Positions 1,921 through 47,145 of a DNA stretch of 64,000 bases are shown here, one piece after another. Both the position numbers and the translations under genes were made by a program. The DNA is from Eledone cirrhosa (Eukaryota): the NCBI GenBank assembly GCA_964016885.1, contig OZ024748.1:33542001-33606000 (forward strand), given 5' to 3'. Each line of letters starts with the position of its first letter. The stretch's first letter is position 1. Under the pieces are notes generated by a model. That model was not told where the DNA came from. It was given only the letters and a program-made list of their open reading frames with translations, and did no database searches.

Positions 1921-4697
1921 TTAGGTAAGGCGGGTCTTCTCTGTTACTGAGTACCGCCAAAGGTCTCGGTCCAGTGACATTGTCTTGGAGAGGTGTAAGT
2001 GTGTGATGTCGGAGTTTATCAGCTCGTCCCAGGTTTTTCTAGGTCTGCCTATTCCGTGACTACCGTCTATCTTTATTGCCCTGCACTTTGTTATACAGCT
2101 ATCGACTTTCATGCGCATCACGTGTCCATACCAACGTAGCCTTCTCTCGAGTAAACAACATCTGATCCCTCTTATCTCTAATTTTTTCCTTAGTTCGTTT
2201 ATGCTTTGCCGTTCACGTATATTACTGTTACACATCCAGCGGAGCATGCAAGCTTCGTTCCTCTCTAGTCTGCGTATATCCTCTGCACACAATGCCCAGG
2301 TCTCACTGCCATGCAGCATTGCTGTTCGTATGCAGGCATCGTACAACCTGCCTTTCATTTTTAGTGAGAACCCTTTAGCAGCTAATAGTGGTATAAGCTC
2401 TCTGAACTTTTTCCAACCAGTTCTGACTCTAGCTACAGTACTTTCAGAGCACCCTCCACCACTGCTGATTTTATCGCCCAGGTAACGGAAGCTGTCCACT
2501 ATTTCTATAGAACCCTCTGCGCAATTGAAAGAGCTAGTAGTTTGTGGGCACTTGCTGCTACTTATTGCACCAGAGCACCGGCCACATGTAAAATCTATGT
2601 TCTTAGTTAGCTTACCTGTGATCCCACTACATCTTTTATGCACCCATACTTTGCATTTAGGACATAAAATGGAGTTTCTACCTACGCCTTTCCTACACAC
2701 CGAGCACGACCATTTCCCAGAAGGGACCGCCGCCTTGTTTTCTTTCCTACAAACTAGTACTTTGGTCTTAGCCAGGTTAATTTTAAGTCCTTTTGACTCT
2801 AGGCCGTGCTTCCATGTTTGGAATTTCTTCTCTAGCTCGGCCATTGATTCCGCTATGAGTGTCAGGTCGTCTGCGTATAGGAGTTCCCATGGGCAGCCTG
2901 TCTTGAACTCCTCTGTTATAGCCTGAAGGGCAATAATAAATAGTAGTGGACTGAGAACAGAGCCCTGATGGACGCCAACTTTTACGCTAAACTCTTCACT
3001 ATATTCGTTGTTAATTCTAACCTTGCTGACTGTTTCTTTATACATGGCTTGTATAGCCCTCACAAGCCATTCGTCGACGCCTAGTTTTCTAAGAGCCCAC
3101 CAGATAATGGAGCGGGGGACTCTGTCGAAGGCTTTCTCCAAGTCGACAAAAGCTAAGTAGAGGGGTTTACCTTTAGCTAGGTACTTCTCCTGTAGTTGCC
3201 GTACTATGAAAAGAGCGTCTGTGGTACTTTTGCCTGACACAAACCCGAACTGCATTTCATCTAGGTCAATTCTCTCTCTGATTAGTTGCGCTATTACTTT
3301 TTCCGTGACCTTCATGACCTGGTCGATTAATTTAATGCCTCTATAGTTACTCCTATCTAGGGCGTCTCCTTTACCCTTATAACAGTTAACGATGATGCTG
3401 CTATGCCAGTCCTTCGGAACAACCCCATTCTGTACGACTTGGTTAACTATGCGGGTGACCATGGTGTGTCCCACCGTGCCAGATGCCTTCAGCATCTCAG
3501 CAACTATTTCCGAAGGCCCAGCCGCCTTACCAGTCTTCATATCCTTGATTGCCTTACTTATTATACTCCCCTCGACTAACACTGCTGGTCCCTCTATTGG
3601 GTCGATATGGGGGAGACTGCCTTTCTCCCAATTATTCTCCTCATTTAGTAGCCTTTCATAGTGACACTTCCAAGCTACCTTCTTATCAGCGTCGGTGATG
3701 GCAAGTGTGCCATCGTCGTTTAGTACACACTTCTCCCCGACAATATCACGGTTTTCCTTGACGCATTGCCTAGCAATCCTGAACACCTCACGTTTTTGGT
3801 CATCGCGTTGTAGAACATGCTTGAACTTTCTTTCCTCAGCTTCCCTTCTTGCTAAGTACACTTGTCTCCTAGCTTCCCTCCTGGCCACTTGATAGTCCTC
3901 TCTACTTCCCCCATCCCGCCATACTTTCCAAGCCTGCTTTTTGGCCTTAATTGACCCCTCCACCTTACTGTTCCACCACCATGTTACTCTCCTCCTGCCT
4001 ACAGGCCTGCTCCAGCCACAGACCTCGTCTGTCGCCAACAGCAGGTTTGCTTTCAGAAATTCCCACTCTCCCTCTATATTGTCCGACTCTAAATGTTCTT
4101 CCTTACTGTCGAAAGCATCAAGTAATATGCTTTGAAATTTATTCCTGGCTGTGGGGTCCTTTAGCTTCCATATTTTCCTCCTGAGGATAGTCCTCTTCTG
4201 TTGTCGAGTACGTCTCGTCCTGACTATGAGGTCGCTAATTATCAGTCTATGTTGGGAGGTGCATTCTTCATGGGGGAGGGATTTAGTGTTAACAACAGAC
4301 ACTCTGTCACGTCTTCTGGTAAGGATATAATCTACCTGGCTTGTGTGTTCCCCGGATCTATAGGTGATCAGGTGATTGTCACGTTTTTTGAAGTTAGTGT
4401 TACAGATAGTTAGGTTATTTGCATCACAGAATTCCAGGATTCTGGCGCCTTCCTCATTTCTAGTACCAAACCCATAGCCTCCATGGATTTCGTCGTAGCC
4501 GTCACAATGTTGTCCAACGTGACCATTTAGGTCGCCTGCGATAATTATATAGTCACTGTCGGATATTTGGGAGGTAGTTAGCATCAGTGTCTCATAGAAT
4601 CTGTCTTTTATAGTGCCGGGCAGTCCGGATTGGGGTGCGTACGCAGATATTACTGTCACCGTAGTTCTATTGAGGACAAGTCGTATTTTAATTATTC
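1921..4697 (-). CDS. RTE ORF: N-truncated AP endonuclease, reverse transcriptase and internal PHD finger
   Basis: APE motifs SAYAPQ, GDLNGHVG, QVDYIL, SQHRL. RT motifs NYRGIKL, QFGF, FVDLEKAFDRV, GVHQGSVLSP, YADD. C4HC3 finger. RTE C-terminus RLRWYGHV..GRPRKTW. About 920 aa without stops. Confidence 0.92.
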
Positions 4698-4975
4698 TAA
4701 AATACGACTTGTCCTCAATAGAACTACGGTGACAGTAATATCTGCGTACGCACCCCAATCCGGACTGCCCGGCACTATAAAAGACAGATTCTATGAGACA
4801 CTGATGCTAACTACCTCCCAAATATCCGACAGTGACTATATAATTATCGCAGGCGACCTAAATGGTCACGTTGGACAACATTGTGACGGCTACGACGAAA
4901 TCCATGGAGGCTATGGGTTTGGTACTAGAAATGAGGAAGGCGCCAGAATCCTGGAATTCTGTGATGCAAATAACC
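4413..4975. repeat. Perfect inverted repeat: 278-bp arms (4413-4690 and 4698-4975), 7-nt loop ATTATTC
   Basis: Arms read as exact reverse complements, and the ORF track gives the same peptide on both strands. Confidence 0.95.
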
Positions 4976-5239
4976 ATATATATATATATATATATCCCAC
5001 CCACACTGGCATGTAAAAGACACAGCAAAAAGCACCCAGCCCACACTGTTAAGTGGACATGTAGGTGCGTCCACACTGTCAATGTGGTTGGCGTTAGGAA
5101 GGGCATCTAGCCGTAGAAAGCTAGCCAGAAACACCCCTATATGAGTGAGACACGGTCACCTGACCCAAATTGCCTCTAAATGGGACCCGTCTAACCCATG
5201 CTAGCATGGAAGATGGATGTTAATTGATGATGATGATGA

Positions 5240-5424
5240 TATATAATAAAATGTAGTTTCCTTGAAGCATTATATATAATATATAATGTTGAAAGAGGTA
5301 GAAGGCTAAACAATGCAAAATGGACTGTAAGATGAGGTAAGGAAAAGTGAAAGTTACCTGGTAATATTTGTTTTGTTTTTTTATTGTCCAATATTGCGAG
5401 ACCTAAAAGTCCTTTCTTCAGGGT
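5240..5424 (-). mobile_element. Penelope-like pLTR remnant with a decayed minimal hammerhead
   Basis: Minus strand CC-CTGAAGA-AA-GGAC-TTTTAG-GTCT-C-GCAA-TATT-GG. The paralog at 52653-52684 retains GAAA. Confidence 0.5.
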
Positions 5425-5425
5425 T

Positions 5426-5632
5426 TTAACATTTACATTACTACATATATACTATTATATTTCCATGGTAAAGGCTTTACCTCACATATGTCACATAATA
5501 TCGAATCTATGAGATTTTGATATTATTTATATTGAAAACAATATCTTAACATCAGTATGAGCGGCAAATTACGGCTGGTTTGAAACGAAAAAGGGGACAA
5601 CATTCTGGCCAGTTTTAACGTTAAAAGGTTAA
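5426..5632. mobile_element. piggyBac-type TTAA MITE (left end eroded)
   Basis: Homologous to 37504-37719. Ends AAAGGTTAA. Confidence 0.6.
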
Positions 5633-5730
5633 GCAACTTTCAGTGGATAATGTTCCAATTTCCTCTCTTTGGGATTAAATTTTGATTTTGATTAAAATTT
5701 TTTCTAAGTTGTTTCCAAGAGTTTTAGAAA

Positions 5731-6345
5731 ATTGATGGAAGCTATGGAGTCGGAAGGCCTGGGATGAGGTGATAAAAGCTGACCTCACACAATTGATGGA
5801 AGTAGGAAGACCTAGGATGAGTTGATAAAAGCTGACCTCACACAATTGATGGAAGCTATGGAGTAGGAAGACCTGGGATGAGTTGATAAAAGCTGACCTC
5901 ACACGATTGAAGCTATGGAGTAGGAAGACCTAGTTTGAGGTGATAAAAGCTGACCTCACACAATTGATGGAAGCTGTAGAGTAGGAAGACCTGGGGTGAG
6001 GTGATAAAAGCTGACCTGACACATTTGATGGAAGCTATGGAGTAGGAAGACCTAGGATGAGGTGATAAAAGCTGACCTCACACAATTGATGGAAGCTGTG
6101 AAGTAGGAAGACCTAGTTTGAGGTGATAAAAGCTGACTTCAAATAATTGATGGAAGCTATGGAGTAGGAAGACTTGGGATGAGGTGATAAAAGCTGACCT
6201 CACACAATTGATGGAAGCTATGGAGTAGGAAGACCTGGGATGAGGTGATAAAAGCTGACCTCACACAATTGCACTTCTCAAAGACAATGACACAGGATCG
6301 AGATCTTTGGCGTTATACAGTAATATAGAAGACCAGCTTTCCCTA
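5731..6345 (+). repeat. About 60-bp minisatellite (about 9 copies) derived from the 3' end of an RTE ORF
   Basis: Unit ATTGATGGAAGCTATGGAGTAGGAAGACCTGGGATGAGGTGATAAAAGCTGACCTCACACA corresponds to RTE IDGS.G.GR..TWDEVIKADLT and runs on into the single-copy RTE end. Only 2 units in the paralog at 53548-53670. Confidence 0.85.
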
Positions 6346-6689
6346 GCATTGGTATCAATGACTCCCACATGGACATCAATACACATCTGTATATACACAC
6401 CTAAAAAATCGAAGACCCTTGTCGGTCACAAATGACCATGTGATTTGCAACTAGAAAGTTCCCTTCCAAAGCACAAGTCCGGTTGTTTGAGGAAGACCAG
6501 CAGTTGCCCATGTATACCAGTCTCCCCACTCCACACCACCGATGTTGTCCAAGGGAAAGGTAATGGCTGATATAGCTTGGTACCAGTGACATCACAACAT
6601 ATATATACACTATATATATATATATAGGGCATCCAACCAGTGTATCAATGCCAAAACGATTATAAGCACAGCAACAAGTATATAGGATC

Positions 6690-10975: not shown

Positions 10976-11123
10976 AGTTTTATGATTTTAATAACCTCTG
11001 TCGTTTTCATTCAATTAATTTATTTACATTATTCTCAACTCCGAAGCCGTGAGTCATTCGGTTTCCTAAATAGTATATTAGTCTACAACTTCATTTATAC
11101 CACAAACGTGGTTTTGTCTTTAC

Positions 11124-11287
11124 GTACAACTATGTCACAACATATACCTGCAATTATAGTCATTTTTAATAATATATATACACTGATACTAACATTCTAG
11201 AACAATTGTTCTAGAATGTTAGTATCAGTGTATATATATTATTAAAAATGACTATAATTGCAGGTATATGTTGTGACATAGTTGTAC
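11124..11287. repeat. Perfect 164-bp palindrome (82-bp arms, no loop) at an LTR end
   Basis: Centre AACAA|TTGTT between 11205 and 11206. Arms are exact reverse complements. Confidence 0.95.
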
Positions 11288-11849
11288 TTCACAGAAGTCA
11301 AATAAATTAATAGAAATAATTTTTACCACATATTGATGGTGAGTTGGTTTCAACTCCCAGACTGGAGCGTGTAGAGAAGAGAGAGAGAGAAAGCAGAGAT
11401 CTTCTCTTGGTAAGGTTGAAGTCGTTCTTTTCAGCTGCGGCGTAGGAAGTGAGAGAGAATTGCCTCACGTTCTCAAATATATAGTCCCCATGGGGACGTA
11501 ACTCCATTTAGTACATGGATGTACCACTAGGGGTCACGACCGTCGCAAAGGGACGCAACTCTTATCCGTTCTGAGATCCTCGCAAAGGGGCGCAAGTCTT
11601 ATCCGTTCTGAGTTCCAGCCGTAAGGGGGTCGTTACAGTACCTTCCTCCAGACAATAGGCGAAAAGCCCGAAGGTAATAGTAGCGAACCCACAAGCATGG
11701 GCTCCCAGCACAGGCATGAAATATTAACGAAAAGGTACATGTATACATAGTTCAATACAATAAAGAGAAAAACAAATAAAAAGGCTCCAGTGGCCAGTTC
11801 ACATAAAAACAGTTTGGCAGAGTTTTTTGGGCCAGTGGATCTTCGACCG

Positions 11850-14800
11850 GAACGGGTCGTGGTCTTGTATGTAGGTGAAGGTGGGGAAGAAGGAGCAGGT
11901 GTATGCACAAGAGAGAAAGATTGGGGTATTTGTGGCTCCGGTGTATGAGCGTCATTGTAAGACCTTTTTAGTATATCCACCGAAATTGTCTCTCTGGACC
12001 CCTTAATGTCTACTGTGAAATGTTTGTCAGTACGTGCTAACACACGGTAGGGTCCAGAGCACGGCTGTGTGAGGGGTGGAGTAACGGCGTCGTTTCTGAC
12101 GAATATATGTGTCCACGAGGCAATATCCCTCGGGACTGCAGCTTTAATAGTTTGTTTCCTAGTATTCATGGGCGGTAAGTCCTGAAAATAGGAGCGCAAA
12201 CGAGATATGTAGGAAAGAGGGTCCTGAAAAGCAAGATCAACAGGAGCAAGCATTTGCCCAGGCAACGCTAGAGGAGCACCATACAGTAATTTGGCCGGGG
12301 AGAACCCAAGGTCCTGCTTTATTGATGACCGAATTCCTAACAACACAATAGGAAGGTACTCGCTCCAACGTTGAGAGTCTGGATAGGCGCGAAGAGCGGC
12401 CTTTAATTGGCGGTGGAATCGTTCCACCATTCCGTTCGAAGCAGGATGATAAGCTGTGGTCCGAATCCGTTGAGTACCAATGATCTTTGTCAGCTCCGAG
12501 AAGAGATGAGAGTCAAATTGTCTACCACGGTCTGTGTTGACTGTTGTTGGCATGCCAAAGCGAGTAATCCACCCTGATACCAGGGCACGCGCTATAGTCT
12601 CAGCACTGATGTATTTTAAGGGGATGGCTTCAGGCCATCGCGAAATACGATCGATGCAGGTCAAGAGGTAAGAATATCCACTACTCAATGGCCAAGGTCC
12701 AACGATATCAATGTGGATGTGTTGAAACCGAGCATCTGGAGTACTGAAAGTACCAAGTGGAGTCCGGATGTGTCTGTGGACTTTAGATCTCTGACACTGT
12801 GTGCAGGAACGGCACCAAACAGTAATTCTCGCCTCATTGGGCCAGAAAAATCTAACCGTTATGAGCTTTACTGTGGCTGAAATTCCTGGGTGAAAAATGC
12901 TGTGCAAAGCAAGGAACACAATATGACGGTGAGTCTCAGGAACAGAAGGTCATGGTGAATCCGTAGATACATCACATAGAATCTGCCTGCCGGTGGTCGA
13001 CAAGGGCAGATATTTGAAGATGCAAGTCGCAAACTCGGCAGAAAAAGTATCCAACGATTTGAGTGCAGGTTGGTCTGCAGCTAAACGACTTAAGTCGATC
13101 TCCTGGGATGACAAGACGGAGCTGATTGGCAAACGTGACAATGCGTCTGCAGCTATGTTAAGCGAGCCAGCAATGTGCTGGATATCATTTGTAAATTGCG
13201 AAACGTAATCCAGGTGCCTTGTCTCTCTGGGTGAATATCTGTCGGCTTTAGCCCTCAAAGCGAAGGTCAGAGGTTTGTGGTCAGTTAAAACAGTAAAATT
13301 TCTCCCCTCAAGAATATGAGAGAAATGGTTCACCGACAGATATATGGCTAATAATTCCCGCCCAAACGTGCTGTAACGCGTTTCTGCTGGTTTCAGCTTT
13401 CTTGAGAAAAATGCCAAAGGTTTCCAGCGTTGTACTGCTGTAAAACTGCCCTCACAGCGGTATCAGATGCATCAACACAAAGCGAAAGCTTGACCTCTGG
13501 TACCGGGTGGGATAGCAAAGATGAACTAGCGAGTGCTCTCTTGGCAGCTGTCCTTGTGTCAAGGAAATATCCTCATTCTTCTTACGACGATTTTTCAAAA
13601 TGTCAGTAAGGGAAGATAGCAAATTAGCATAATGAGGAACGAAACGCCTATAGAAATTGATTAGGCCTAAGAAGTGACGCAACTGGTGAAGTGTAGTAGG
13701 CGGAGGTAAATCCTGTATGGCTTGAACTCGCTGGAGAAGCGGCCTAATACCTTCGGCGTCGATGAGGTGGCCTAAAATATTGAGCGAAGTGGAACCGAAA
13801 TCACACTTTGCGGGATTCACACGAACGCGGTAATCCTGAAGTTGCCGAAATAAAAGATGCATGTGGTGCATATGCTCTTCCGGGGAGGAACTAGCGACGA
13901 GAAGATCATCTATGTATGCATAAACGAAGTCCAGACCACGAGTGACTTCGTCTATGAACCGCTGAAAAGTGCTAGCGGCGTTCCTGAGTCCGAAAGGCAT
14001 GGTAAAAAATTCGAAGGATCCGAAAGGAGTTGTGATCGCCGTTTTTGGAATATCCTCCTTCCTGACCGGAATTTGGTGGTAAGCTCGCACTAAATCTAGT
14101 TTTGAGAAAATCTTACACCCCTGCAATGAAGATGCGAAATCCTGGAGATGGGGAATGGGATACCTATCCGGGACGGACATAGCATTTAACCTCCTATAAT
14201 CCCCAGTGGGTCTCCAGTCGCCAGAAGTCTTGGGCACCATGTGTAATGGTGAAGCCCAAGGACTCGTAGATGGGCGAATAATGCCCAGCTGCAGTATATG
14301 GTCGAGCTCGGACCGTGCTGCCTTTAATTTGTCCGACGGTAAGCGGCGTGGACGCGAAAATACTGGAGCACCGGTGGTGGAAATGAAATGTTCAGTTGAG
14401 TGGGTTGGCTCAGTGACTCGCAAATTTCCATCGGTGAGCTCCGGGAAAGAATCTAACAACGAATGGTAGGCGTCTCCAGCGGCAGCGATGAAGAATATGG
14501 GGCTAACTGTTGGAGATTTGGCTTTCCGGCCACGAATTGAAAAACCGGTGATGTCATCCAAAAGGCGTTGGCCACGGACGTCCACAGTCAAAGAGAAGTT
14601 GTGGAGCAAATCCGCTCCTAAGATAGGGTATGGCAAATCGGCAACCGTAAAAATTCACTTAAAATCCCTACGAAGATTTAGGAATTTGAGAGGAGGCGAG
14701 ATTTGTCCGTACGTCGTTATAGACGAGTGATTAACGGACTGCAGAGTAACGGATGACTCTACGGGGGTATCTTTCAGGCAATGGACCGGCTAAATACTAC

Positions 14801-14900
14801 AGGAGGCTCCTGTATTAACGAGGAAACCTCTTCCCGACATAAGGTCCTTAATGAAGAAATGGCGGTTTGGTGGCTTTATGTTGAAGTCAACTGCCTCCAT
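11850..14900 (-). pseudogene. pol: Outer Gypsy pol (protease, RT, RNase H, integrase), frameshifted
   Basis: [56 protein letters not shown] and TRSGR, spread over several frames. Confidence 0.9.
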
Positions 14901-15712
14901 CAGCGGGCCTCTTTGGCGTTTCCCGCCTTATGAAACGAGCAAGGTTGCACGCAGTGGTTCACGCTCTCGGCAAAAAGCTCGTGGTACCAGCCTAAAGATG
15001 AAGCTGATGACCTGGGGCGGCGTCTAAAAGAGTGAGATCTCCCACGGTTGCGCGAGCGCGAACGGGCACCACACCAGACTTTCATCTTCTGGAGCTCCAG
15101 GGTGAGTTCTTGAATGGCCTTCTGCATCGCCATAATGGCTGAGCTGTCTGTAGGAGCTGCCGCGCAGATGGCTTGGCCAGGTGTGACCTGAGCTGGTTGG
15201 GAAACAGCGGCAAGGGCTTCGCTGCCTCCAGCACCCGTGACTTCAAAACTTTGTCCGCAGAGGCGGCAAGCTGATCAACTGTGCAAGTGTCCCTAATGGG
15301 GGCCAAAATTGCCTGTACGTTGTGGGTAGGCGTGAGAAGAACAACTGCTTCAACATTGCAGATTCCGCTACCGACCCCTCCGTTAGGTCATTCATTCGCC
15401 TTAGGAGGTTCGATGGGGTGCCATCACCGATATGCTCCAGGTGGACCAGAGCCCTAAATCTTTTCTCTGCGGACTGTGCAGTCCGGCTGAGTATTTCAGC
15501 CTTCAGAGACTTGTACGTCGCGTCGGTGGATGTATCTAACACCAGGTCCTTAATCGCTGGGATAAGTGCCGGCGGAATTGCACTAAGGCCTAGGGGACGT
15601 TGTTGTGCTTCGTCGATTCTGTTCCCTCGAAAAATGCTTCGATTTGGGCGAACCATGACCTTACGTCGCCCGTGTACGTAGGTAAAACAGAATGAGATGC
15701 CATTGGTATACC
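14900..15712 (-). pseudogene. gag: Outer Gypsy gag, frameshifted
   Basis: GDGTPSNLLRRM..QLFFSRLP. Degenerate CHCC knuckle (G)WYH..F..VNHCVQPC. Homologous to 19887-20651. Confidence 0.8.
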
Positions 15713-16757
15713 GTAGGTAATCTGCTAAAAATTGTCTCAGTTCGGAAAAATATCTCCAACACAAGACAAAAAGAAAACAAAATCGCTTGTCAACTGGGCA
15801 GGAAAAAGAATGCACCCGAGAGAATATGTAAAGGAGCGACTAACGGAGCAATGTCATTAATAAGGTATAGGCGGCGAATTTAAAACAAAAATCAATATGG
15901 CGGACGATTTCGCGCCAAAAACACTTTTGATGGAGAAGAAAACCGCCATCTTGTCATCCTCAAACATTTTAGCCAGAGAAAAGAAGAAAAGAAGAAAAAA
16001 CATTCATACAATTGTTGTCTTGCTAGGAAGCTAGCAGCAATATCATCTTATTTTTTTTTTTTTTCTTGTGTTTAGTGTTCGGCCAGACCCATGATTATTT
16101 ACTTGAGTAAATATCACCGGAATCTAACTACTAAATTTTATACAGAAAATGATAAGATATATACAAAACACCATAACGAATACAAGTCTTCATTTTATTA
16201 TAACTCCGTTATAATTGTTGTACACAAATATCCTCGTACATATTTAGGTATAGTCTAAGCCCGTGATTAACATGTTCATCTTCAGTGTTGTCGGTTCGAA
16301 GGAAAGGCGCCAAAGAGAGAAAGAGCTGGCTGTGTTGCCGCTATTTATAACCTCTTTCCGGAAGTTGCAAAAGAGGGTTCTAGGCTTTCGACGGGAAGTA
16401 ACTCTAACTACTTCCCTGTCTAGAGAGCGCTACAAGACTCCCCTCTCAGACGACAAGTCGAATGACCAAATGAAATCATTGTAGCGAGAACATGAGGAGC
16501 AAAGCAAAAGGTACAAGAACATGAATGTATAAAACATGAGCAAGCAAATAGCAAAATGAGCATAAAACAAGTAATGCATTTTTACAAAGAATGTTTGAAT
16601 GTAACGAATGATAAATCATAGTCATACAAAGGAGCAGAGAATATTGATGCTCAATGGTAAAATCAATGTTTTTCAAAGTCAAATAGTTCATACATCACTA
16701 GTGTACAGACTTTTCTGACACTAGTTCTATCTGAAAACTGAAAAAAGAGGAGGTATG

Positions 16758-19700: not shown

Positions 19701-19860
19701 ACTGCATACAAGGAAATACCTGAAAAATTTGGCTTGGTACAGCTGAAACGAAGTGGCCAAAAACTGCAGTTAGAACCTGTGTCGACCATAAACGATTTGT
19801 TTGAAATTCGATCTTTTATAAAAAAAAAAAGGCACGGCAAGGAGAATTAATGGTGGAGAG
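16758..19860 (-). pseudogene. pol: Inner Gypsy pol, frameshifted
   Basis: Protease FMVDTGS, RT YVDD, RNase H VDAS..TDHK, integrase [22 protein letters not shown] and TRSGR. Confidence 0.9.
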
Positions 19861-19886
19861 ATCTGCCGTGCCCAGATTCTCCAGGT

Positions 19887-27464: not shown

Positions 27465-28298
<834 letters not shown>

Positions 28299-29109: not shown

Positions 29110-32100
29110 TCCGAACGGAAGTCGAACGAATCGTGTGACGCACCAAACTACAGGCACATTTCCATCTAACACCACCGGCTCCGAACGCTCCAGACCCGTT
29201 TCTAGCCCTGGGCCGCCGACCATTGTCTTGGACGCCGGCACCAGGGCAATTTAGCACCCTGGACACGTTCGTTGTCGCCTACCGTAGCGCAGTAAATCGC
29301 TTCGACTTCCGCCACCGTTCCAAACGGAATAACATCTCACGGGGTGAACTCCTCACTCTCCGCTCCCTGCGTAGCCGAGATGACATCGTCATCAAACCGG
29401 CGGACAAAGGAGGCGCCGTGGTGGTATGGCGCGCTGACCTCTACACGGCTGAAGCCCTCAGGCAGTTCCGTAACCCCCTCTTCTACCGCCCTCTACCCTC
29501 TGACCCCACAACCCTCTACCAACAACAAGTTTCCTCCACCATCAAACACCTTGTCTCCTCCTCCCTCCTACCGCTTCCCACCTCATCGTACGCACCCCTA
29601 CTATCTACTTCCTCCCCAAACTCCACAAACCTGTTAACCCCGGCCATCCCATCGTCTCTGCTTGCAACTAACCCACTGAACTCATCTCCGCCTTTCTTGA
29701 CTCCATCCTCGCCCCCTCGTCACCACCCTCCCCTCTCACATCTCCGACACTAACCACGCCCTTCGCCTGTTCGACTCCTTCACTTTCCCACCCGGCCCAC
29801 ATCCCCTCCTCTTCACCCTAGATATCCAGTCCCTCTATACTGTCATCCCCCACGCTGACGACCTCGTGCCCTCCGGCACTACCTCGACCTTCGCCCTTCC
29901 CCCATCCCCTCCACCCCACCCTCCTTCACCTCGCCGAGCTGGTCCTCACCCTCAACTGCTTCTCCTTCTCGGGTGAGTTTTACCAACAGGTCACGGGGGT
30001 AGCCATAGGCACAAGAATGGGCCCAAACTATGCCAACCTTTTCGTTGGCCATGTTGAGGCCCAAATCTTTGCCCAGTACACCGGCCCCACGCCCGAACTA
30101 TACGGTCGTTACATCGACGACTGTATAGGAGCCACGACCCTCACCCTAGAACAGCTCGACTCCTTTCTCTCCTTCTTCTGCTCCTTCCACCCCTCCCTCC
30201 ACTTCACCACCTTTATCTCCACCACTCACGTCCACTTCTTTGACATCTCCATCGCATCGACCCCTCCCTCCGCTCCCTCATAACCTCCGCCTTCTTCAAA
30301 CCCACCGACACCCACTCCTACTCGACTTCACCTCCTCCCACCCCCCACACACTAAACACTCTATTCCCTACTCCCAACTCCTCCGGATCCGCCGCCTCTG
30401 CAGCCGAGATGCTGACTTTGAGTCCCAAGCACTTTCCCTAGTCAGCCATTTCATCCGGCGAGGTCCCCCCTCCCTAGTACACACCGCCCTCACTCGCGCC
30501 CGTACTGTCCACCCCTCCACCGCCCTCACCCCACGCCACCGCAACACCAACCCACCGTCTCCCCTTCCCCATCACCTACCACTCCTCCACCTCTTCCACT
30601 GCACCATCCTCCGCCTCTTCCGACCCTCCACTTCCTCCACCTTCCCATCTTCCCATCCCCACCCCTCCCCTCCTTCAAACGCGTACGTAATCTCCGCACC
30701 CTCGTCGTCCACAGCTCCCTACCTCCCAATCCACGCTCTCCTCCCCCCTGTGGTTCACTTCCCTGCTCCAGGCCTCGTTGCCACACCTGCCCACACATCA
30801 CCAACACCACGACCTTCCATGGTCCCAACGGCCACTCTCTCTCTGTCCGGCACACCTTCCGCTGCACCTCCTCCAACCTAGTCTATGGACTTCGCTGCAC
30901 GGAGTGCAACGCAACCTACGTCGGACAGACTAGACGTCACCTGGCGGACCGTTTCACGGAACACCTCCGGGATATTCGCCTCGGCGGGAGTTCCCCGATC
31001 GCCCGCCACTTTCGCTCCCCTGGACACTCCGCCCACCATCTCACAGTCTGTGGCCTACTCCAATGCCATGGAACACCCGCTACTCGCCTCATGGTCGAAC
31101 AACGCACCATCTTCACCCTCCAGACCCCCCCCCCCCCCCCGGCCTGAACTCCCCACCCCTATTCCTTTAGGCTTCGACCGCCCACATTCCCCTCTAATAC
31201 CCCTAACACACTTCCCCTTTCACCGCCCCACTCCCTTTGCCCATCCCACAATTAACATTACTAACACCCCCAACCCACATTACGGCCCTCCCCCCAACTT
31301 ACAATACTAACATCCCCACCCCTCCCCATAACCGCACACACCCACCTGAACATGTATACACGCACTCACACTATCCACACACCCTACTACCACCACTAAC
31401 CCTCACACACACATCCCCTCCGACCACCCTACAACTAACATCACTAACCTCCCCCCGACCCCACGCACACGAACACACACCATTACACACATACACCTAT
31501 GTACACCACCCGCTCCACACACTCAACCACCACTAACCCCCACTTACACACCCGCCTTCCACCCTTTCCCCACCACACGGAATACTAACACACACTTTAC
31601 CACACACACACTCATCCAAACACGCACACACACACCAGTATACTACACTCCCTCCTCTGTCCCAACACCTCTTCCCTCCCACTCTCTCTCTCTCCCTCTC
31701 CCCGCTCCTCTTACACTCCTTCACACACACACATCCCACTAACACCTCTACTAATATACACCCCGTCGCCCCACTTTACCACCCTCCCCCTCAACCATTC
31801 ACACCGACCCATCCTCTTGCATGTCCACCACACAAACAGACACACAGTCTACACCACACTGACCTTACTCCACCTGTCATCCAGCTCTGCTGCTATCTCC
31901 TCCTCCTCCTCCTCTACTTCTATCTCTTCACCTTGCCTTGACCCTCTGACCACTTCCTGTTGCGCGCGCACACCACTTCCCTCCACTTCCGACCACCAGC
32001 ATTGGATTCCACACCACCGGTCACTTCTCCAGCGATCCACTCCATACCATGGAAAATATCCAGCATCCCTTCTCACACTCGATGGAACTACCTCAGGAAC

Positions 32101-32605
32101 TTACCCACGAACATACACTCACATTTTTTTTCGTACCACGCCACCCACATATAAACACAAACACACACGTGCGTACCCCCACTTATATACACTCTCAACC
32201 TCCGGAATCCAGAACATGGAACCTCGTCCTTCTTCTCGCATACACCCACACACACACTCACGTACACCTACACACATACACAAACACCACCTTCAGCCTT
32301 CCCCGCTTTGACCCCCCTCCCAACTCCACCCGCCACCACCCTTACACGCCTTACACCCTTCCATCACTTGCTCATCTCATTATTAATTCTTATGTTTATT
32401 TTTCGTTTATTTTTATTCTTATTTTCATTTGTTCTCCATCGCCCCTTTTTCTAAATGTTTTTCCACACACCCGCGGAACTCTCTTCCTAACCTATTTATC
32501 TTGAAGAAGGGCATATGCCCGAAACGCCCCCCCCCTCAAAAGCGTGAACCTAGTAAACCTTTATTTGTCTGCCTCTCTGTTTTGTTCCCGTATAAATTTG
32601 CACTA
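29110..32605 (+). mobile_element. Penelope-like element (Neptune-type RT plus GIY-YIG), frameshifted and 5'-truncated
   Basis: IVIKPADKGGAVVVW, MGPNYANLF, RYIDD, SIPYSQLLRIRR, linker CSRPRCHTC, NLVYGLRC..C.ATYVGQT. Hammerhead-like TTGAAGA-A-GGGC-ATAT-GCCC-GAAAC at 32501-32525. Confidence 0.88.
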
Positions 32606-33326: not shown

Positions 33327-33329
33327 CAC

Positions 33330-36442: not shown

Positions 36443-36721
36443 TATATATACACACACACACACACATATATATATTTCTACATATACATATTTATATACA
36501 TAATTATATTTACATACATATATACATTTATATATATATATATTTATAGACATATAGATATATTTATATACATATACATAGATATATTTATATACATATA
36601 CATATATATATATATTTATACATATATATATTCATATACATATATATTTATATACATTTATATATATATATTTATATACATATACATATACATATTTTTT
36701 TCAATATATATGTGTATATAT

Positions 36722-36914
36722 AAATTTATCCCGGGTTCAATCAGGAGTAACCCCAGTAAGTAAGGTACTCAATACATGGCTGAGTATAAATATTTAATAT
36801 AGAAATGGCTTCTACAGGACTAGAACTGTTTCATTCGGGAGAAATCATCTGGAAGCTTCCTGATGATTTCTCCCGAATGAAACAGTTCTAGTCCTATGGA
36901 AGCCATTTCTATAT
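36722..36914. mobile_element. Fold-back element: 118-bp loopless palindrome (36797-36914) with a hammerhead-like core in each arm
   Basis: Centre GGAAG|CTTCC, 3 mismatches in 59 pairs. CTGATGA-TTTCTCCCGAAT-GAAAC at 36860-36883. TA flanks. Confidence 0.7.
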
Positions 36915-37092: not shown

Positions 37093-37396
37093 ATGTGTGT
37101 GTTTTGAACAATGAAAATAAAACTTGAGACAAAGATATGTTCTTAATTATTTCATTGTTTTACGATCATTTCAGAGGTTTAATTGATCATGGTAGATTGA
37201 TATATTGACAAACAGGTAGTTGTCATGTCACTAACTATTTCTAGTCTAAATATCCCTGATCAATCACAACATATCAATATATTGATTTACCATGATCAAT
37301 CAACCCTCTGAAACGACCGTAAAACAATGAATTAATTAAGACCATATCTCAGACTTTTGTTTTATTTTCATTGTTCAATACCCACAAACACACATG
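37093..37396. repeat. Diverged inverted-repeat element (about 115-125 bp arms)
   Basis: 37093-37208 is an imperfect reverse complement of about 37270-37396. Contains GAAA-CG-AC-CG-TA. Confidence 0.65.
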
Positions 37397-37404
37397 TATA
37401 ATTG

Positions 37405-39110: not shown

Positions 39111-39619
39111 TGAAGTAAATTAAATCAAAATAGATTTAGACTAAAACGAACAAAACTTCCCTGAAACAACAACAAAGTACAGCTAAATATAAAATAAATT
39201 TTATAATGTAAGATAGTGAACAACATAATTAAATAGACGGAGGTATTTTAGATAATAAAGATATCTTTAATTTACTTAAAGCAATAACAAGGCACAGCTA
39301 AATATAAAGTATATTTTATAATGTAAGGTAGTGAACAAGATAATTAAATGGACGGAGGTAATTTAAATAATAAAGACAGTCATAATAACAATATATTTTA
39401 TATCATATGTAAAAGTGGAATCTGGTGATTGAAAAATAACACATCAACATTTCAGTTTGGAAGTTTTATTTCTGTATATATATATAGGAAAAGGTATGAA
39501 CCCGACGGCAGAGCTCAAGCCGTTTCGACATATATATGTATATATATATATAACACTTTCATAAGTCATGAGAAAGAAATATATTTTCACTTGTATATTT
39601 ACTCGATATATACATAAAA

Positions 39620-41435
39620 AGATAATACAATGAAAGATATATTTCTTCAATGCTACAATATTAAAGAAAATGTAAAGGAAGGGGTGAACAACGGGGCCAA
39701 CACCAGAGCAAAAGATAGCAACATTGCGAGTACTGGGCAACCTCTCTAATGATTTTTGAGGCAAGCCAGCACACTCGCAGCGTTGCCTCGGGTGATGGTG
39801 AGGCTGATGTGCTGAAACAGCCAAGCACCATCGCGAGATTCGCCAGTCACCTCTATTAGGTGAGCCGCCAGTGAGGAAAGGAACCTCGCAGTCAGCGGCC
39901 CGACTCCCCCAAACCTCTCGAAAGCCAAAGGCTGAAAAATGTAGCTGGCCAACAGATCAGAGTATTTGAGGGTCTTACTCTGCTCGGCTGTAGAAGCTGT
40001 GGCTCTCGTCCTAACCGCGGTATCCAGGATGTGGGAAAGCACAAAAGAGTCACTAACAGTGACGTCCCAGACAAGGCACCTGCCTCTTGACCAGGGGCAC
40101 AGGGTAAGACCGTCAGGTCTTTTGCCGTCACTTCTGGACAACCCAGATGGTTCCAAGACTGAGGAGATATTCGCCTGGGCCAAAGTTCGCTTCAGAATGA
40201 GGTTTAGCTCCATGTGACGCGTGAAGCGCCCGGCATTCAGGCGGCAAGAAAGACTGTGGAGACCCGTGGAGTCGAGGAGTTTGCCGCATTGGCACCTTAA
40301 ACCCATGCAGACGGTGGCTCCCACTCTGAGGGTGATGGAGACACGAAGTTCGTCCATGCTGAGTAGGCCACCAACGTTGGCCTCCGGTAGGGCATCGACC
40401 CAGTCGCCTGAGTATTTGGCGCTGGCAGATAGTAAGCGGCACCTTGAAAACCGATTTGACTGGACGAAGAGGGAGTCGAAGGTGGCCTCGAACTGATGCT
40501 GTCCCAACTTCTCTGACTTCGACTGTCCTCCACCCTCTCAGGAAGAGACAAGCCCAACTCACTCCATTGCTGGAGAGCTTCACCCAACTCCCTGTTGGAA
40601 CTAGTCCATGCTGGAGAGGAGAGGATGCTGCTCACCAGGGTGGAGCAAGCGTGGGTGGAGGAAAGGAAGCAGGGGAGAGAGAGGGACAAAAACTTATGAA
40701 GACCAAGACCCCCAAATCGCTTGGGCAACACAGCCTGATCGTGGGACTCCGGAGAAAGTCTAACATTGACCAGACACTCGAGTCTCTCGAAGATTAGGTC
40801 ATCGAAGCGTTGGAGGCAGGACGGAAATCTGTGAGAGGGGCTGACCCTGAGCAGATACAGAAGCTTAGGAATAGACAGGTAGTTCCTGAGTATGAAGAAA
40901 CATTGATGGGGTTCGATAACTTCGATATTCCTCAGCAGCTGCTCAAGGCCAACCATCTTCGATTGGAAGGTTGACTTGAAGGCCAGGTCTGTGATTGGGG
41001 CTCCTAAGGAGCACCAAGCCGACGGGGGAGGGACCGCGATGGAAGGGAAGGACTTTGTGAACAGGTCGATCAGCTGTTGGTGTTGAGGAGCCGGGTGGTT
41101 GAGGATCCAGAGCTCACATTTGGAGCTATTGATCTGGAGACCCCGGTGGCCAAGCTCCTCCTGTTGGCAGTGGTGAGAACCATATCCGGAGTTCCCCCCA
41201 AACAGGCGTCGTCGAGGTACCAGACATTGAGATCCAACTCAACCCCCATCTTGGTGACGTCATCAATGCCCAGTGCAAACAGTGCGGGCCCGAGTGGGTC
41301 ACCCTGTTGGACTCCTCAGGCAGAGGTGATGATCTGGTCACCGAAAGAGAAGTAGGAGGGCTCCCGATAAGCCTGCCAAGCAAAGTGGTAGAGTTGTGGG
41401 ACCCTCTCTCTTAGTGAGCCGAGGATGATGTCGCA
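39620..41435 (-). mobile_element. CRE-like non-LTR retrotransposon fragment (RT plus restriction-like endonuclease), frameshifted
   Basis: GVQQGDPLGPALF, WYLDD, GGLGL, C.CG..LD..GLH.LSC, RH, EP.GL...DGKRPDGLT..WDVT. Confidence 0.82.
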
Positions 41436-42040: not shown

Positions 42041-43620
42041 TGTATGTATTGTAGTGTCTACGCCATTTTAATTTTATCTATTTATTTATTTATTTATTTT
42101 TGTCCTCGTCTCTGCGCATGCGTGTGTATAGTGTTTGGTGTGTGTTCGCGTTTGGGTGACTGTGTTTTGGTTATTGTATTCTATCTTAGTTTACTAGTGT
42201 GTGTTTATATTTGTTTGTTGTTATTGTGCTTGTGTATATATTTATTTATTTATTTATATTTCTCTTAAGTAAATATTGTTTGTTTGGGTGTTGTTATTCC
42301 ATTCATTTTTTTCTGTTTAGCTTTGGCCTTCTAAGCTCTATTTCGCTTGCTTCTCTGATTTTCCTACCTGTTGGGGTCATTTCTATGTTTAGATATTATT
42401 TTAATTTCTATGTTGTCTATGTTACCGTCATGTTGTCTGGCGTGTTCGTATAGTACTGAACCGTTTTTTTGTCCTTTTAATTCCCCCCAGTGTTGGTCTA
42501 TCCTTTCTCCTATACTTCGAGCTGTCTCGCCTATGTATGTCGTTGTCATGTTTCTGCAAGTACCCTCTGTACATCTTATGCTATAGACTACATTTCTAGT
42601 TTTACAGTTTATCTGAGGGTTTACTTTACATATAATACATTTCTTATTATACAATGGGTTTTCTTAAAAGGGTTTGTTTTGCTGATCGGGGATTGTATGG
42701 TAGTTCCTGGCTTTTCTACCACTTTAATCTTTAAGTGGGTCTTCCTTAAGGCCTTTCTACGTTGGTTAGCTAATTTCCCTCCAGGGGTAGCATCCTCGAA
42801 CATGACACTCTGGTATCTCTTGTTGTCGTACCATGAGGTGGCTTTCCCTATCTTATGTTTAGTCCTATCTAAGCTATTCCATCATTTACTCCTGTATAAT
42901 GGGAAAATTCATTTCATGTCCAGTTCTATGAGGGTCTTATACTTCTCCGTGGCTCCTTTGTATGCTCTGATTCTGTCTCTTTGGTTGTAGCCAGAGAACT
43001 GCATGCGGTTGATGAAGTGTTGAATGTGTCTTTCCATTTCTGTTGGGTCGCACATACGGGACACGTTCTTCATCACTCGTACCAAGTCTGCGATCAGAAT
43101 ATTAAACTTAGCACTGGACATTGCTGAATTTTTGAGTATCAGGTATTTGTAGGCCATGGGTTTAGTGTAGTGTGAGTGGAGAATTTGGGCCCTCTCGTCT
43201 ATAGTGTTAATCCAGAGTTCCATGTCTAATACAGGTAGTCTATTGCTAGGGTGTTTGGAAAGGTAGTCAACGGTTACAGTTATACTCTGGTGTATGGAGT
43301 TAGCTATCTGCTGGATGCTTTCCATTGTGCTACATTCTAAATCATGTTCGTTAGTACTCTCTTGTGCGGGTGTCCTTATTACTATATTAATATCGTCTAC
43401 GTAACGAGAGTACATGATGAGGTCTATGGAGCTCTCTTCAAGATATTTGGGTGTCCTTTCCCACCATACCATAAAAAAGGTTGACAACATCACCAGCTAT
43501 GCTGCTCTCTCATTTTTGGTGTAAATCTTTTCATTGAATTTGAATATATGGCTCTTTAGGGTAGTTTTAATACTGGCCCCTATTACATGCGTGACCATTT
43601 TTCTCACCTGATCATTCTAT
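42040..43620 (-). mobile_element. Second Penelope-like element fragment (RT C-terminus plus GIY-YIG)
   Basis: YSRYVDDI, LPVLDMELW, HYTKPM, NVVYSIRC..C..YIGETARS.GERI..H. Frameshifted. Confidence 0.82.
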
Positions 43621-43804
43621 AACTGCAAAAGGAAAAGAAATAAAAAGAAAGAAGAAAGGGACATGATGCGTGACAGTTTTTTTCAAATATTAAGTCAGGT
43701 AGAAGCGACCAATTAAATATCATGAAATTTTTAATCTATTGTATTTGGTTATATTTGAGCAAATTATACTATTATATTATATCAAAATTAAACAATATAA
43801 AATA

Positions 43805-43866
43805 TTTTATCTGATGAGAACGTACTGAAAAAACAGCACAGTACCTCCGAAATATATATAATAAAA
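43805..43866 (+). ncRNA. Minimal type I hammerhead ribozyme motif
   Basis: TTTTAT-CTGATGA-GAACGTACTG-loop-CAGTACCTCC-GAAA-TATATA-TA-ATAAAA. Complete core, 6-bp stem I, AUA triplet. Confidence 0.75.
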
Positions 43867-44009
43867 CATATATTTTGATTATGTGAATGTCTCCATTTAT
43901 TAATATTTTGAATAATATTAATAACTCCAGAAAACTTCTTTGTTGAGTGCTTTTAATCTATTGTAAAACTAAATTCATTGAGTAATCAATGAACCCTATT
44001 AACATTTGG

Positions 44010-44046
<37 letters not shown>

Positions 44047-44611
44047 TGAAGTATTTCCGTCGGAAAGTTACAGGAAAAAAGAGTGCTCTATGTAGGCTAC
44101 AGAGCTTATTAGTTATGTAATGAACAACATAAAATAATTATTTCATTTACCAGTGGTTTCTTGAAAGCAGATGTTGTATCTGTTTTCAGTCGTCAGAATG
44201 AATAAAAAACATGGTGTTTTTATTAAATTTGGATTTGAAAACAAAATTTAAGAAATATGAAAGTGAGGCTGAGAAAAAACGGGCGAAAAAGAAAAGGGGA
44301 AAAAGAATATATAAAAATATATATATATAAACAATAAATATCCAGAACGTAAACACACACACTCAACCACGCGCATATACTTAAAAAGTACGTAGACGTA
44401 TACTTTTTCACATAAGCGTATTTACAACCCCTTTTTTTCCCTTACCTGTGCTTAATAATTGTGTTTATTATTTTATTTCAGTTTTACTCCCCTTTTGCCC
44501 TTACTTACCCATAGGTTTTTAAATGTACTCACATAGAGTTGTATGCGGGCGCATATGCAGACAGACTTATGTGTACATACATTTATAGCGTTTTGATTAT
44601 TTAATTGTATG

Positions 44612-44642
<31 letters not shown>

Positions 44643-44773
44643 ATGTGTGTGTGTGTGTGTATGTGTGTGTGTATATATATATGTATATGTGTGTGTATAT
44701 ATTTATATATATATATATATATATATATTTTAATTCAAAATATTAACAAAATAGATATTCTTGTGATCAAGTA

Positions 44774-44840
44774 TATTTTATTATACATATTTCAGAGGTA
44801 CTGAGTTAAGTTCAACAGTACGTCCTCATCAGATAAAATA
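44774..44840 (-). ncRNA. Minimal type I hammerhead ribozyme motif (inverted second copy)
   Basis: TATTTTAT-CTGATGA-GGACGTACTG-loop-CAGTACCTCT-GAAA-TATGTA-TA-ATAAAATA. Confidence 0.75.
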
Positions 44841-45729
44841 AGATGATGCATGACATACCCTGACATAGTAGATGGTTAAGATTCAGTCATGGTAGTGAGT
44901 AATATATGACAAAACTCAATATTTATATACCTTAATAATGAAAACATGAAAAAAACCACAGATAATACATATAATAGAGAGGGTGCGTGTGAGAAAGCTT
45001 AAAAGAATACATGGCAGCAATATAACTGTTACAGATTCAAATAATTTAAATTATTGAAGAAAGAGAAAAGAAAAGAAAGGCATAGAGGAAGAAACAGATG
45101 AGGGGATAATATAGCTAGTAGGAGCCTAGAAAACAAAAGAGAGTTGATTACAGAGAGAGAGAGATAAAGAGGAATAACTTTTATAATGTAATAATATAGG
45201 GAGATAGTAAATTAGAACAACATTTGGGCTTAGCTTTAGGAAAAAGAAAAAAATTCAATTCATTGAATTATTGAAATATCTAAAAATATTCATCAATCGG
45301 AATTTTAAATATAATTGGGAGTATTCCTATGATGGTTAATACCAAGTCTTTAGACAAATTATCCATATATACAATATATATCCAAACATATCTGGTTGAC
45401 TGTTAACATTCAAATCATTTAATTTAAGTTAGTTCAGAGTAATGAATAATATTTTAGGTTATAAAAGTTAATAAATATCTGTATTAATATTAAAGTATAC
45501 TATCATATTTAATTTATAAAATCAAATTTTATGAAATCAAATTTAAAGGATTTACAAACACGAGAAAGAAAACATAATGTTTTTACAACCTCACGAAGGT
45601 AAACTTTACTAAATTTATTATATAATATTAAATTATTTATATTATATTGAAAATAGTTTATATTATATAACTTAGAAAATAATTACAGTTATAGTTTTTA
45701 AAGTATTTTAAGATTAACAATTTGAATGC

Positions 45730-45982
45730 CAATTTATTTTCCATATTTCTTCTTCCCTTAGCACAATTTTCAGATGTTATTTTTTATATTATATTCCTGA
45801 AAATATTTCTTCTGCTATATTTCCCTCAACTGTGATCTCAGTTCTGAAGAAATAATTCACAGTAAATCTGAAATAAGAAAGAAACAGTATGAGATAATAA
45901 CGAATACTTAAGAATCAGGAATAGATTTAACAGTGTAAATTTTATATTTCTATATTGATAAACTGTAGATAACTTTCCTCTC
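45730..45982 (-). pseudogene. Orphan 5' fragment of a fourth ZNF copy
   Basis: MENKL start and upstream block match 26815-27296 with internal deletions. No fingers follow. Confidence 0.7.
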
Positions 45983-45983
45983 C

Positions 45984-46506
45984 ATCTGGGTCCACCTATC
46001 GTTGGGTGATTCTCACCATTGTCCAGCAGCCAGACCACGAAGCAGCAGTCCTTGAGAGAATAATGATGTGAAACATTCACGTTCTACAGACCCCTTGGGG
46101 TCTGCAGACTTCCACTGACGTCTACGGACCTTTTACTCTATCTCTCAGACAAGCGAGACCGAAGCAGCTGTCCTTGAGAAGAATAACGAACACTAAGGAT
46201 ACACACACACACTCAGTAGGTTTCATTTCACTGTTTACTTATGTGTTTTATCTATTCTTTCGTCATCCTGTTGATCACTTCTATTGTATCGTTGTATTGA
46301 TACATACATACATGCTAGCTCGAAGTAGCTAATCAGCAAATTGATGTAGTGATAATTCCTGTCACAATTTTTATTACTCGATATTCAATGTAGCAACAAG
46401 TGAATATTGTTATTGTAAAATAAACATTTTCAACATCACAATTTTGGCATTATTCTTTTTATCATTCATCCACAAAAGAATACATTTATCCACTAAATAT
46501 GCAACA
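45984..46506 (+). mobile_element. Possible solo or truncated LTR
   Basis: Interrupts the ZNF upstream block, has an internal short direct repeat and AATAAA, and ends TGCAACA. Confidence 0.3.
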
Positions 46507-46630
46507 AACAAAAGGGGTCCAAGAACAGATCCCTGTGGTACACCAGATGACATCTCATACGGTGAAGAATGCTGTCCTAGAACCGTGACTACCTCCGACT
46601 GAGAGTGAAGGATTTCAACCAGTTAAAAAT
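46507..46630 (-). mobile_element. CR1/Jockey-group RT fragment
   Basis: Reads SGVPQGSVLGPLLF. Confidence 0.7.
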
Positions 46631-46749
46631 TATACACTATATATGATGTTGTCCAAAGGAAAGGCAATGGCTGATACAGCTTGGCACAAGTGATGTCACA
46701 ACATATACACCCTATGTTCAGTATATATACCCTATATATATTATATATA

Positions 46750-47145
46750 CTAGCAGAAAAAACCACTCTTCGGGTGGTTTTCTGCTAGCATTTGTAGATA
46801 TGATACATCAAATAAAATCGTAATTCTCAATATAAACAGACATTGAACGAAGACGTTGTTACACTGTCTTAGGTAATCAGTAACGTAATCCATGATACAT
46901 TAAAAAAAGACGATATTATATATAAACTGCATTAGGAGAAAATTAGTGACAGAAAATTAGTATGTTTATTTAAGTGATCGCCACCAGAAGTGTTGACATC
47001 ACACACTCTCTCTTTCTATATATATGGTAGTTGAAGTGGTGGTGGTGGTGGTGGCAACGATATACCGGAAGTGCAACTTTGAAAAGAAGTCAATTTTAAA
47101 TTATTTATTTTTACGAAATTATTTTTGTTTACGAAATTTAGTAGA
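46750..47145 (-). mobile_element. Non-autonomous mini-Helitron
   Basis: A|TCTACTA 5' end at 47145, subterminal hairpin ACCAC..GTGGT and CTAG|T 3' end at 46750, no TSD. Confidence 0.65.

What the first reader, a model, noticed from the sequence alone, without database searches (positions are those of the whole stretch)
4413..46788. Window-wide theme: fold-back palindromes at retroelement ends plus a swarm of tiny hammerhead-bearing inserts
Seen: long inverted repeats at 4413-4975, 11124-11287, 27706-28084, 36797-36914, 37093-37396 and 46750-46788, each forming or abutting an element end. Seen: hammerhead cores or halves near 5400/52670, 27880, 32510, 36870, 37310, 39515, 43830 and 44800, mostly in unrelated sequence contexts and mostly next to (TA)n. 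Known: Penelope-like elements carry minimal hammerheads in their pLTRs and often have inverted pLTRs. Inference: this genome may host a diverse population of non-coding, ribozyme-processed mini-retroelements mobilised by PLE proteins, and a general cDNA snap-back route that also acts on RTE and LTR cDNA. Each such insert in a ZNF intron would supply long dsRNA, relevant to the high A-to-I editing known in coleoid cephalopods, or a self-cleavage site.
Basis: partly seen in the sequence, partly recalled or inferred. Interest (0 to 1): 0.72.

Follow-up and report, generated by a model that had tools for sequence, protein, structure and literature searches.

The report
Penelope stubs, not new ribozyme elements
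The mirror-image repeats are real, but they have four origins: most are short ends of ordinary Penelope-like jumping genes, likely copied twice during insertion rather than cut by their ribozyme, while the fold-backs at a LINE and at an LTR element are rare one-offs and one hairpin is simply the fixed end of another repeat.

Summary
All six inverted repeats are present and exceed chance; two of the named hammerhead sites pass a strict descriptor, one more keeps its core, the rest are relics or halves. They do not share one mechanism. 27706-28140 and 36720-36914 are head-to-head ends of two coding Penelope-like (PLE) families (about 28,700 and 18,100 exact marker hits) whose parents carry RT and GIY-YIG ORFs. 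In 23 of 23 family-A pairs one arm has the 80-nt tail and the other lacks it, and in 9 the tailless arm is longer, which a single snap-back cannot make. Family-B stubs mostly stop just upstream of the hammerhead (31-32 of 69), rarely at its cut site (3 of 69); 5,483 loci hold two cores head to head with varied junctions. The RTE fold-back fits true snap-back but recurs in 0 of 88 other copies; the LTR palindrome in 0 of 39; 46750 is a fixed hairpin at 5,475 loci; 37093 spread by segmental duplication. The layout is published (Craig 2021; Frangieh 2024), and this scan reached the same reading before on other DNA. Editing was not testable.

The parts
1500..4690 (-). 5'-truncated young RTE-type LINE (APE endonuclease, RT) inserted in (TA)n
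   Evidence: Pfam RVT_1 and Exo_endo_phos_2; 5,295 exact 3' marker hits; empty paralogous site near 52100
4698..4975 (+). Fold-back arm of the RTE: perfect copy of 4413-4690, 7-nt loop, wholly contained in the main arm
   Evidence: absent from 88 other copies
11124..11287 (.). Perfect palindrome centred 4 nt outside the end of a Gypsy-type LTR (LTR 11210-11637; partner LTR 21514-21986)
   Evidence: only 1 of 40 scored places has it
27706..27965 (-). Family-A PLE end, tailless arm, with minimal hammerhead at 27902-27860
27966..28140 (+). Family-A PLE end, inverted arm with the 80-nt tail region, shorter at its 5' side
29139..32530 (+). Decayed PLE (RT and GIY-YIG fragments) ending in a hammerhead relic near 32500-32530
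36720..36855 (-). Family-B (Hydra-type PLE) stub, tail-bearing arm; hammerhead core mutated
36856..36914 (+). Family-B stub, inverted tailless arm; cleavage triplet mutated
37093..37396 (.). Old head-to-head pair (arms 72-76% alike) with hammerhead relics, multiplied with its flanks by segmental duplication
   Evidence: 29 of 29 other loci share flanking DNA with the window
39480..39530 (-). Family-C stub: 3' half of a hammerhead-like fold in (TA)n
42376..43613 (-). Truncated PLE ORF, 58-64% identical to the family-A protein
43803..44010 (+). Family-D hammerhead-bearing end with intact core, ending in (TA)n
44730..44860 (-). Second family-D end, descriptor-positive hammerhead at 44840-44774
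46750..46788 (+). Fixed terminal hairpin of a dispersed repeat that continues to at least 46999; not a fold-back
   Evidence: 5,475 loci; 7 of 13 loci read continue in the same direction into the same sequence
5385..5425 (-). Hammerhead-like relic, paralogous to 52655-52690
   Evidence: no further copy among 346 fetched loci

Best explanation
The hammerhead inserts that I traced are short ends of coding Penelope-like retrotransposons inserted in TA repeats, and their mirror shape likely arises because both cut strands of the target prime a DNA copy of the element's uncut RNA and the two copies are then joined head to head. Shown: coding parents, outward-facing pairs, one tail per pair, either arm the longer, varied junctions, family-B ends piled up just upstream of the ribozyme. 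Inferred: the two primers use the two start sites that bound the tail; the pile-up is the RNA's 5' end (a TATA-like box lies about 30 nt upstream); joining is by microhomology. The RTE fold-back is likely a rare true cDNA snap-back. The LTR palindrome is likely a one-off DNA-level inverted duplication at the insertion edge. The 46750 hairpin is a fixed end of an unrelated repeat.
For: Parents: family A ends a 919-aa RT/GIY-YIG frame (L255); the family-B unit lies upstream and/or downstream of a 758-aa frame (L312-L314) and within 5 kb of the ORF in 14 of 16 loci. Orientation: among the first 100 family-A marker hits, 24 neighbouring pairs within 1.5 kb face outward and 0 have another orientation; the RTE control has 0 such pairs in 100. 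Tail rule: 23 of 23 pairs examined (of 28 within 4 kb) have one arm from reference 1-30 and one from 81-85; the tailless arm reaches over 50 nt further in 9 of 23, as in the window. Family B: 41 of 42 inverted arms lack the tail; 5' ends at +37..+51 from the cut site in 32 of 69 by script (31 after removing L238, which visibly continues), at the cut site in 3 of 69; inverted arms 30 of 42 against 1 of 42. 5,483 twin-core loci, control 0, 27 junction types in 50. In vitro, a PLE protein cleaves and extends both strands, starts at two sites bounding the tail, and does not need ribozyme cleavage (PMC11167929).
Against: No RNA data, so the start site is inferred from sequence only. One family-B pair has two tails (L248). 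Frangieh et al. saw no strand difference in start-site use, which does not by itself predict one tail per pair. Nine family-A pairs with a longer tail arm, and the near-symmetric ones, also fit snap-back. Family-A ends cluster only weakly at the repeat boundary (5 of 46 arms at 345-359). Families C and D and the relics were not traced to coding parents. All unbiased samples come from the first 33 Mb of one contig.
Confidence: 0.75

Rival explanations
1. All palindromes come from one cDNA snap-back (self-priming) route shared by PLE, RTE and LTR elements.
For: The RTE case has a 7-nt loop and an arm wholly contained in the main copy; snap-back junctions are documented for R2 (PMC11371274); Arkhipova 2013 reads PLE junction palindromes as self-priming (PMC3846280); partner arms share subfamily variants (mean 1.1 differences against 6.4 to other copies, n=18).
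Against: In 9 of 23 family-A pairs and in the window each arm holds sequence the other lacks. 0 of 88 other RTE copies and 0 of 39 other LTR places fold back. 46750 is a fixed hairpin. The LTR palindrome is centred outside the LTR.
Confidence: 0.1
2. The short inserts are self-propagating non-coding, ribozyme-processed elements (retrozyme-like) moved by PLE proteins.
For: Thousands of near fixed-length stubs; family-B hammerhead stems are conserved with an A-U/C-G swap in stem I (37 of 62 Watson-Crick against 23 in shuffles; relatedness not controlled); retrozymes are reported to derive from PLE repeats (10.64898/2026.07.22.740005); 3 of 69 ends lie at the cut site.
Against: Stubs span the uncut ribozyme; junctions differ between loci; none of the window's hammerhead sites lies in a tandem array; identical sequence flanks coding ORFs. 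Short RNAs from solo repeats serving as templates are not excluded.
Confidence: 0.12
3. The perfect RTE and LTR palindromes are assembly artefacts.
For: Both are 100% perfect and single-copy; no listed contig bridges the centre of the LTR palindrome.
Against: The RTE arm ends in the (TA)n target seen at the empty paralogous site; one contig of run X2 joins the left flank to the inverted LTR arm (11092-11199), though its last 24 letters do not follow the window; the PLE pairs recur at thousands of loci.
Confidence: 0.1

Closest known systems
Complex insertions of endonuclease-positive Penelope-like elements: inverted 5'-truncated copy plus tail (Craig et al. 2021, PMC8557442, passages and section 11; Arkhipova et al. 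2013, PMC3846280, passages)
   Same: Head-to-head inverted copy, tail at one end, (TA)n target, hammerhead in the terminal repeat, TATA and initiator-like motifs in the repeat.
   Different: Tail is about 80 nt, not 30-40; thousands of minimal copies made of terminal repeat only; the one-tail rule and the fixed 5' stop are counted here.
PAc Poseidon element in vitro (Frangieh et al. 2024, PMC11167929, main text read)
   Same: Both target strands primed, two start sites bounding the tail, AT-rich target, uncut RNA as template.
   Different: That work does not assign one start site to each strand or explain the inverted copy.
Non-LTR retrozymes (Cervera and de la Pena 2020, PMC7229834, abstract; Li et al. 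2026, 10.64898/2026.07.22.740005, first fifth)
   Same: Short non-coding sequence with a type-I hammerhead, PLE-related.
   Different: Retrozymes are tandem arrays processed to circles; these are dispersed inverted pairs spanning the uncut ribozyme.
Snap-back 5' junctions of R2-mediated insertions (Zhang et al. 2024, PMC11371274, passages); foldback inversions at L1 insertions (Nam et al. 2023, PMC10191854, passage: 0.3%, copying the target flank)
   Same: The RTE copy has an inverted copy of its own 5' end with a tiny loop.
   Different: Here a fixed genomic RTE copy; rare in its family.

Membership tests
Endonuclease-positive PLE | One ORF with RT and C-terminal GIY-YIG endonuclease | tested here: met
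   Family A: 919-aa frame, RVT_1 E=9e-4, VVY...YIG motif read directly; family B: 758-aa frame, GIY-YIG E=0.026, both Pfam scores below cut-off
Endonuclease-positive PLE | Pseudo-LTRs flanking the ORF | tested here: met
   Family-B unit on both sides of the ORF in L303, L312, L314
Endonuclease-positive PLE | Inverted 5'-truncated copy and one-sided tail | tested here: met
Endonuclease-positive PLE | Hammerhead motif in the repeat | tested here: met
   cleavage activity not tested
Endonuclease-positive PLE | RT groups with PLE clades in a tree | not tested
   no reference set fetched
Hydra clade (family B parent) | DKT motif, CxCX5C linker, CxxC and CxH near the C-terminus, RWK-like motif, (TA)n target | tested here: met
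   DKT, CNCLNKEAC, CDLC, CMH and RWR read in L312 against section 11 of PMC8557442
Hydra clade (family B parent) | CCHH motif absent | tested here: inconclusive
   two cysteines lie between the VY and YIG motifs; no alignment to references
Neptune/Nematis-type PLE (family A parent) | CX2-5CxxC linker and CCHH motif | tested here: met
   CIDKKCITC linker, two cysteines inside the core, two histidines downstream; the two clades were not told apart
Non-LTR retrozymes | Tandem repeats with a hammerhead in each unit | tested here: not met
   no tandem array covers a named hammerhead site; copies are dispersed inverted pairs
Non-LTR retrozymes | Unit begins at the ribozyme cut site | tested here: not met
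   3 of 69 and 1 of 42 ends at the cut site
Non-LTR retrozymes | Expressed as linear and circular unit RNA | not testable with these tools
   needs RNA reads
cDNA snap-back junction (RTE copy) | Inverted arm wholly contained in the first strand, small loop at the truncation point | tested here: met
cDNA snap-back junction (family-A insert) | Inverted arm wholly contained in the first strand | tested here: not met
   each arm holds sequence the other lacks

The most novel reading that the evidence does not exclude
Penelope-like integration is a two-primer reaction with fixed roles: a protein dimer primes from one cut strand at the tail end and from the other strand 80 nt inside, possibly on a single uncut RNA that is read twice, and both copies run off at the pLTR transcription start. 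The tens of thousands of stubs in this genome would then be a fossil map of PLE start sites and of how the inverted repeat forms.
Probability: 0.5. Interest if true: 0.55.

Novelty: new member of a known kind. Interest (0 to 1): 0.3.

Why it matters
The origin of the inverted copy in Penelope-like insertions is still open (Craig 2021 names it as a task). The counts here give testable constraints: one tail per pair, either arm longer, uncut RNA as template. The genome also carries at least 5,483 short perfect hairpins from one family, a plausible but untested source of double-stranded RNA. The wider claims of new ribozyme elements and of a general snap-back route do not hold for this window.

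Tried and rejected
Rfam scan: no hammerhead family, only microRNA look-alikes of hairpins. DNA search with the RTE 3' region found nothing because common words are skipped; replaced by a pattern. First RTE reference was itself truncated and microsatellite noise swamped the output; redone. L043's 22-nt palindrome lies in simple-repeat flank and L038's inverted piece is a separate 3' end 100 nt away; both rejected as fold-backs. Top-hit samples are biased towards the query's shape and were not used for frequencies. No RNA holder listed, so editing and expression stay open. One RNA against two RNAs: arms are closer than the median other copy in 14 of 15 family-A pairs, but closer than the nearest other copy in only 4 of 15, so undecided. 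A cap-derived extra G at family-B ends: too few informative arms. RNAalifold on a rough alignment recovered only stem II. The first covariation script had a wrong spacing, corrected.
Full report
Setting. The window is G000:C8:33542001-33606000 of a 3.0-Gb assembly. It is a mosaic of RTE-type LINEs, two nested Gypsy-type LTR elements, Penelope-like (PLE) fragments, a Helitron fragment and C2H2 zinc-finger exons, with large internal duplications.

Observation. All six inverted repeats are in the sequence, and local inverted repeats number 11 against 0 in each of 10 shuffles. Of the hammerhead sites, 27880 and 44800 pass a strict type-I descriptor, 43830 keeps an intact core, both arms at 36870 carry one lesion each, and 5400/52670, 32510, 37310 and 39515 are relics or halves. 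Rfam detects none.

Family A (27706-28140). A 22-nt marker occurs 28,723 times. Among the first 100 hits, 24 neighbouring pairs within 1.5 kb face outward and none has another orientation. Longer copies run into a GIY-YIG and RT frame (L255, 919 aa) with a CX4CX2C linker and CCHH-type residues, as described for Neptune and Nematis elements (PMC8557442, passages). I mapped 23 of the 28 pairs within 4 kb: each has one arm ending at reference 81-85 and one carrying the 80-nt tail (one degraded to position 30). In 9 of 23 the tailless arm reaches more than 50 nt further upstream, in 9 the tail arm does, and 5 are about equal. In the first group, which includes the window's insert, each arm holds sequence the other lacks, so neither can be a fold-back copy of the other; two template copies are needed.

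Family B (36720-36914). A tail marker occurs 18,088 times. The unit is the terminal repeat of a 758-aa PLE: it lies near the ORF in 14 of 16 loci picked by protein search and on both sides in L303, L312 and L314. DKT, CxCX5C, CxxC and CxH motifs match the Hydra clade. In 69 loci taken in genome order (70 read; L178 dropped as a tandem duplicate; L154 classed as long by hand), the tail arm ends at +37..+51 from the cut site in 32 (31 without L238), beyond that in 14, short of the cut site in 10, inside the ribozyme in 10, and at the cut site in 3. An inverted arm was found within about 600 nt in 42; 41 lack the tail and 30 begin at +36..+51. In long copies a TATAAA box lies about 30 nt upstream of this point, so I infer a transcription start. 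Two cores lie head to head within 24 nt at 5,483 loci, control 0, with 27 junction types among the first 50: the hairpin is made anew at insertion rather than copied from one master. The ribozyme fold is conserved in the family (stems II and III paired in 56-62 of 62 sequences; stem I shows an A-U/C-G swap), but the templates were mostly uncut.

Other hammerhead sites. 39515 belongs to a family whose short copies also form one-tailed inverted pairs and begin inside loop II; two long copies show a TATA-like box there and a variant core upstream, which would explain the half ribozyme. 43830 and 44800 belong to a further family with inverted pairs elsewhere; in the window they face each other and are separate inserts. 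32510 ends a decayed PLE. 37093-37396 is old (arms 72-76% alike), and 29 of 29 other loci share its flanks, so it spread by segmental duplication. I did not trace coding parents for these families.

RTE fold-back. The element is young (5,295 exact marker hits) and sits in a (TA)n site that is empty in the paralogous block. [quoted passage not shown] None of 88 other copies shows it (28 top hits and 60 copies in genome order). About 75 of these have a readable 5' end, which bounds the rate at about 4%.

LTR palindrome. Other copies place the LTR end at 11210 with 4-bp target duplications in one pair checked (L294/L299). The centre lies 4 nt outside, at the outer edge of a flank that matches the far flank in 3 of 4 letters. 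The arms are identical while the two LTRs differ by 6.6% over the same stretch (chance of no difference 0.006), and both arms share a private base, so the duplication is later than the insertion or was homogenised. Only the window's own place among 40 scored shows it. Public contigs support the left junction but do not bridge the centre.

46750 hairpin. The same 38-nt hairpin occurs at 5,475 loci as the start of a dispersed repeat. It resembles non-autonomous Helitron ends (recalled, not tested). It is not a fold-back.

Mechanism and comparison. The layout is the published one: an inverted 5'-truncated copy, a tail often at one end only, (TA)n targets (PMC8557442, passages; PMC3846280, passages), minimal hammerheads in the repeats (PMC4209133, passages). 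Frangieh et al. (PMC11167929, main text) show cleavage and extension of both strands, two start sites bounding the tail, and no need for ribozyme cleavage. Joined with my counts, the likeliest route is two primed copies of uncut RNA, one from each start site, joined at their 3' ends. Whether one RNA or two are read is undecided. Three searches found no paper stating the one-tail-per-pair rule as a mechanism; the library omits most subscription papers, and I did not see the supplements of Craig 2021 or Frangieh 2024, which may bear on this. Earlier notes of this scan reached the same reading on other DNA; I had stated it before opening them, took the Hydra lead from them and tested it.

Verdict. 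Real features, ordinary kind, with a useful mechanistic constraint. Interest 0.3.

Noticed in passing
window 44202-44142 (-): An unnamed site passes the strict hammerhead descriptor (CUGACGA core, 6-bp stem I, GUA); shuffles give 0-1 hits, so it may be chance.
   Followed up: no
L064:4327-4470 and L304:1748-1890: Long family-C copies have a variant core upstream and a TATA-like box inside a long loop II, so transcripts starting there would carry only half the ribozyme.
   Followed up: partly
L251:4117-6770, L303, L311: The Hydra-type family-B element has a 2-3 kb 3' region made mostly of TA/CA microsatellite-like sequence between ORF and terminal repeat; L251 forms a 2.7-kb inverted repeat.
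   Followed up: partly
window 39746-41238 (-): Two overlapping frames with RT-like and restriction-enzyme-like endonuclease motifs (read by eye; no Pfam hit), possibly a CRE-type LINE.
   Followed up: no
window 16071-21317 inside 11210-21986: One Gypsy-type element (LTRs 91.5% alike) is nested in another whose LTRs end in AA rather than CA.
   Followed up: partly
window 5730-6271 and 52684-53121: A 61-nt tandem array derived from an RTE 3' fragment and a 60-nt array next to the hammerhead relic, expanded in only one of two paralogous blocks each.
   Followed up: no
window 61819-63840 (+): Helitron Rep/helicase fragments (Pfam Helitron_like_N).
   Followed up: no
families B and C tails, e.g. 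L122:1392-1460: Both tails share the motif TATTGAGTAC, a candidate protein-binding signal.
   Followed up: no
L161: One family-B pair joins an arm ending at the cut site to an arm starting at the putative RNA start through the stem-I microhomology.
   Followed up: partly
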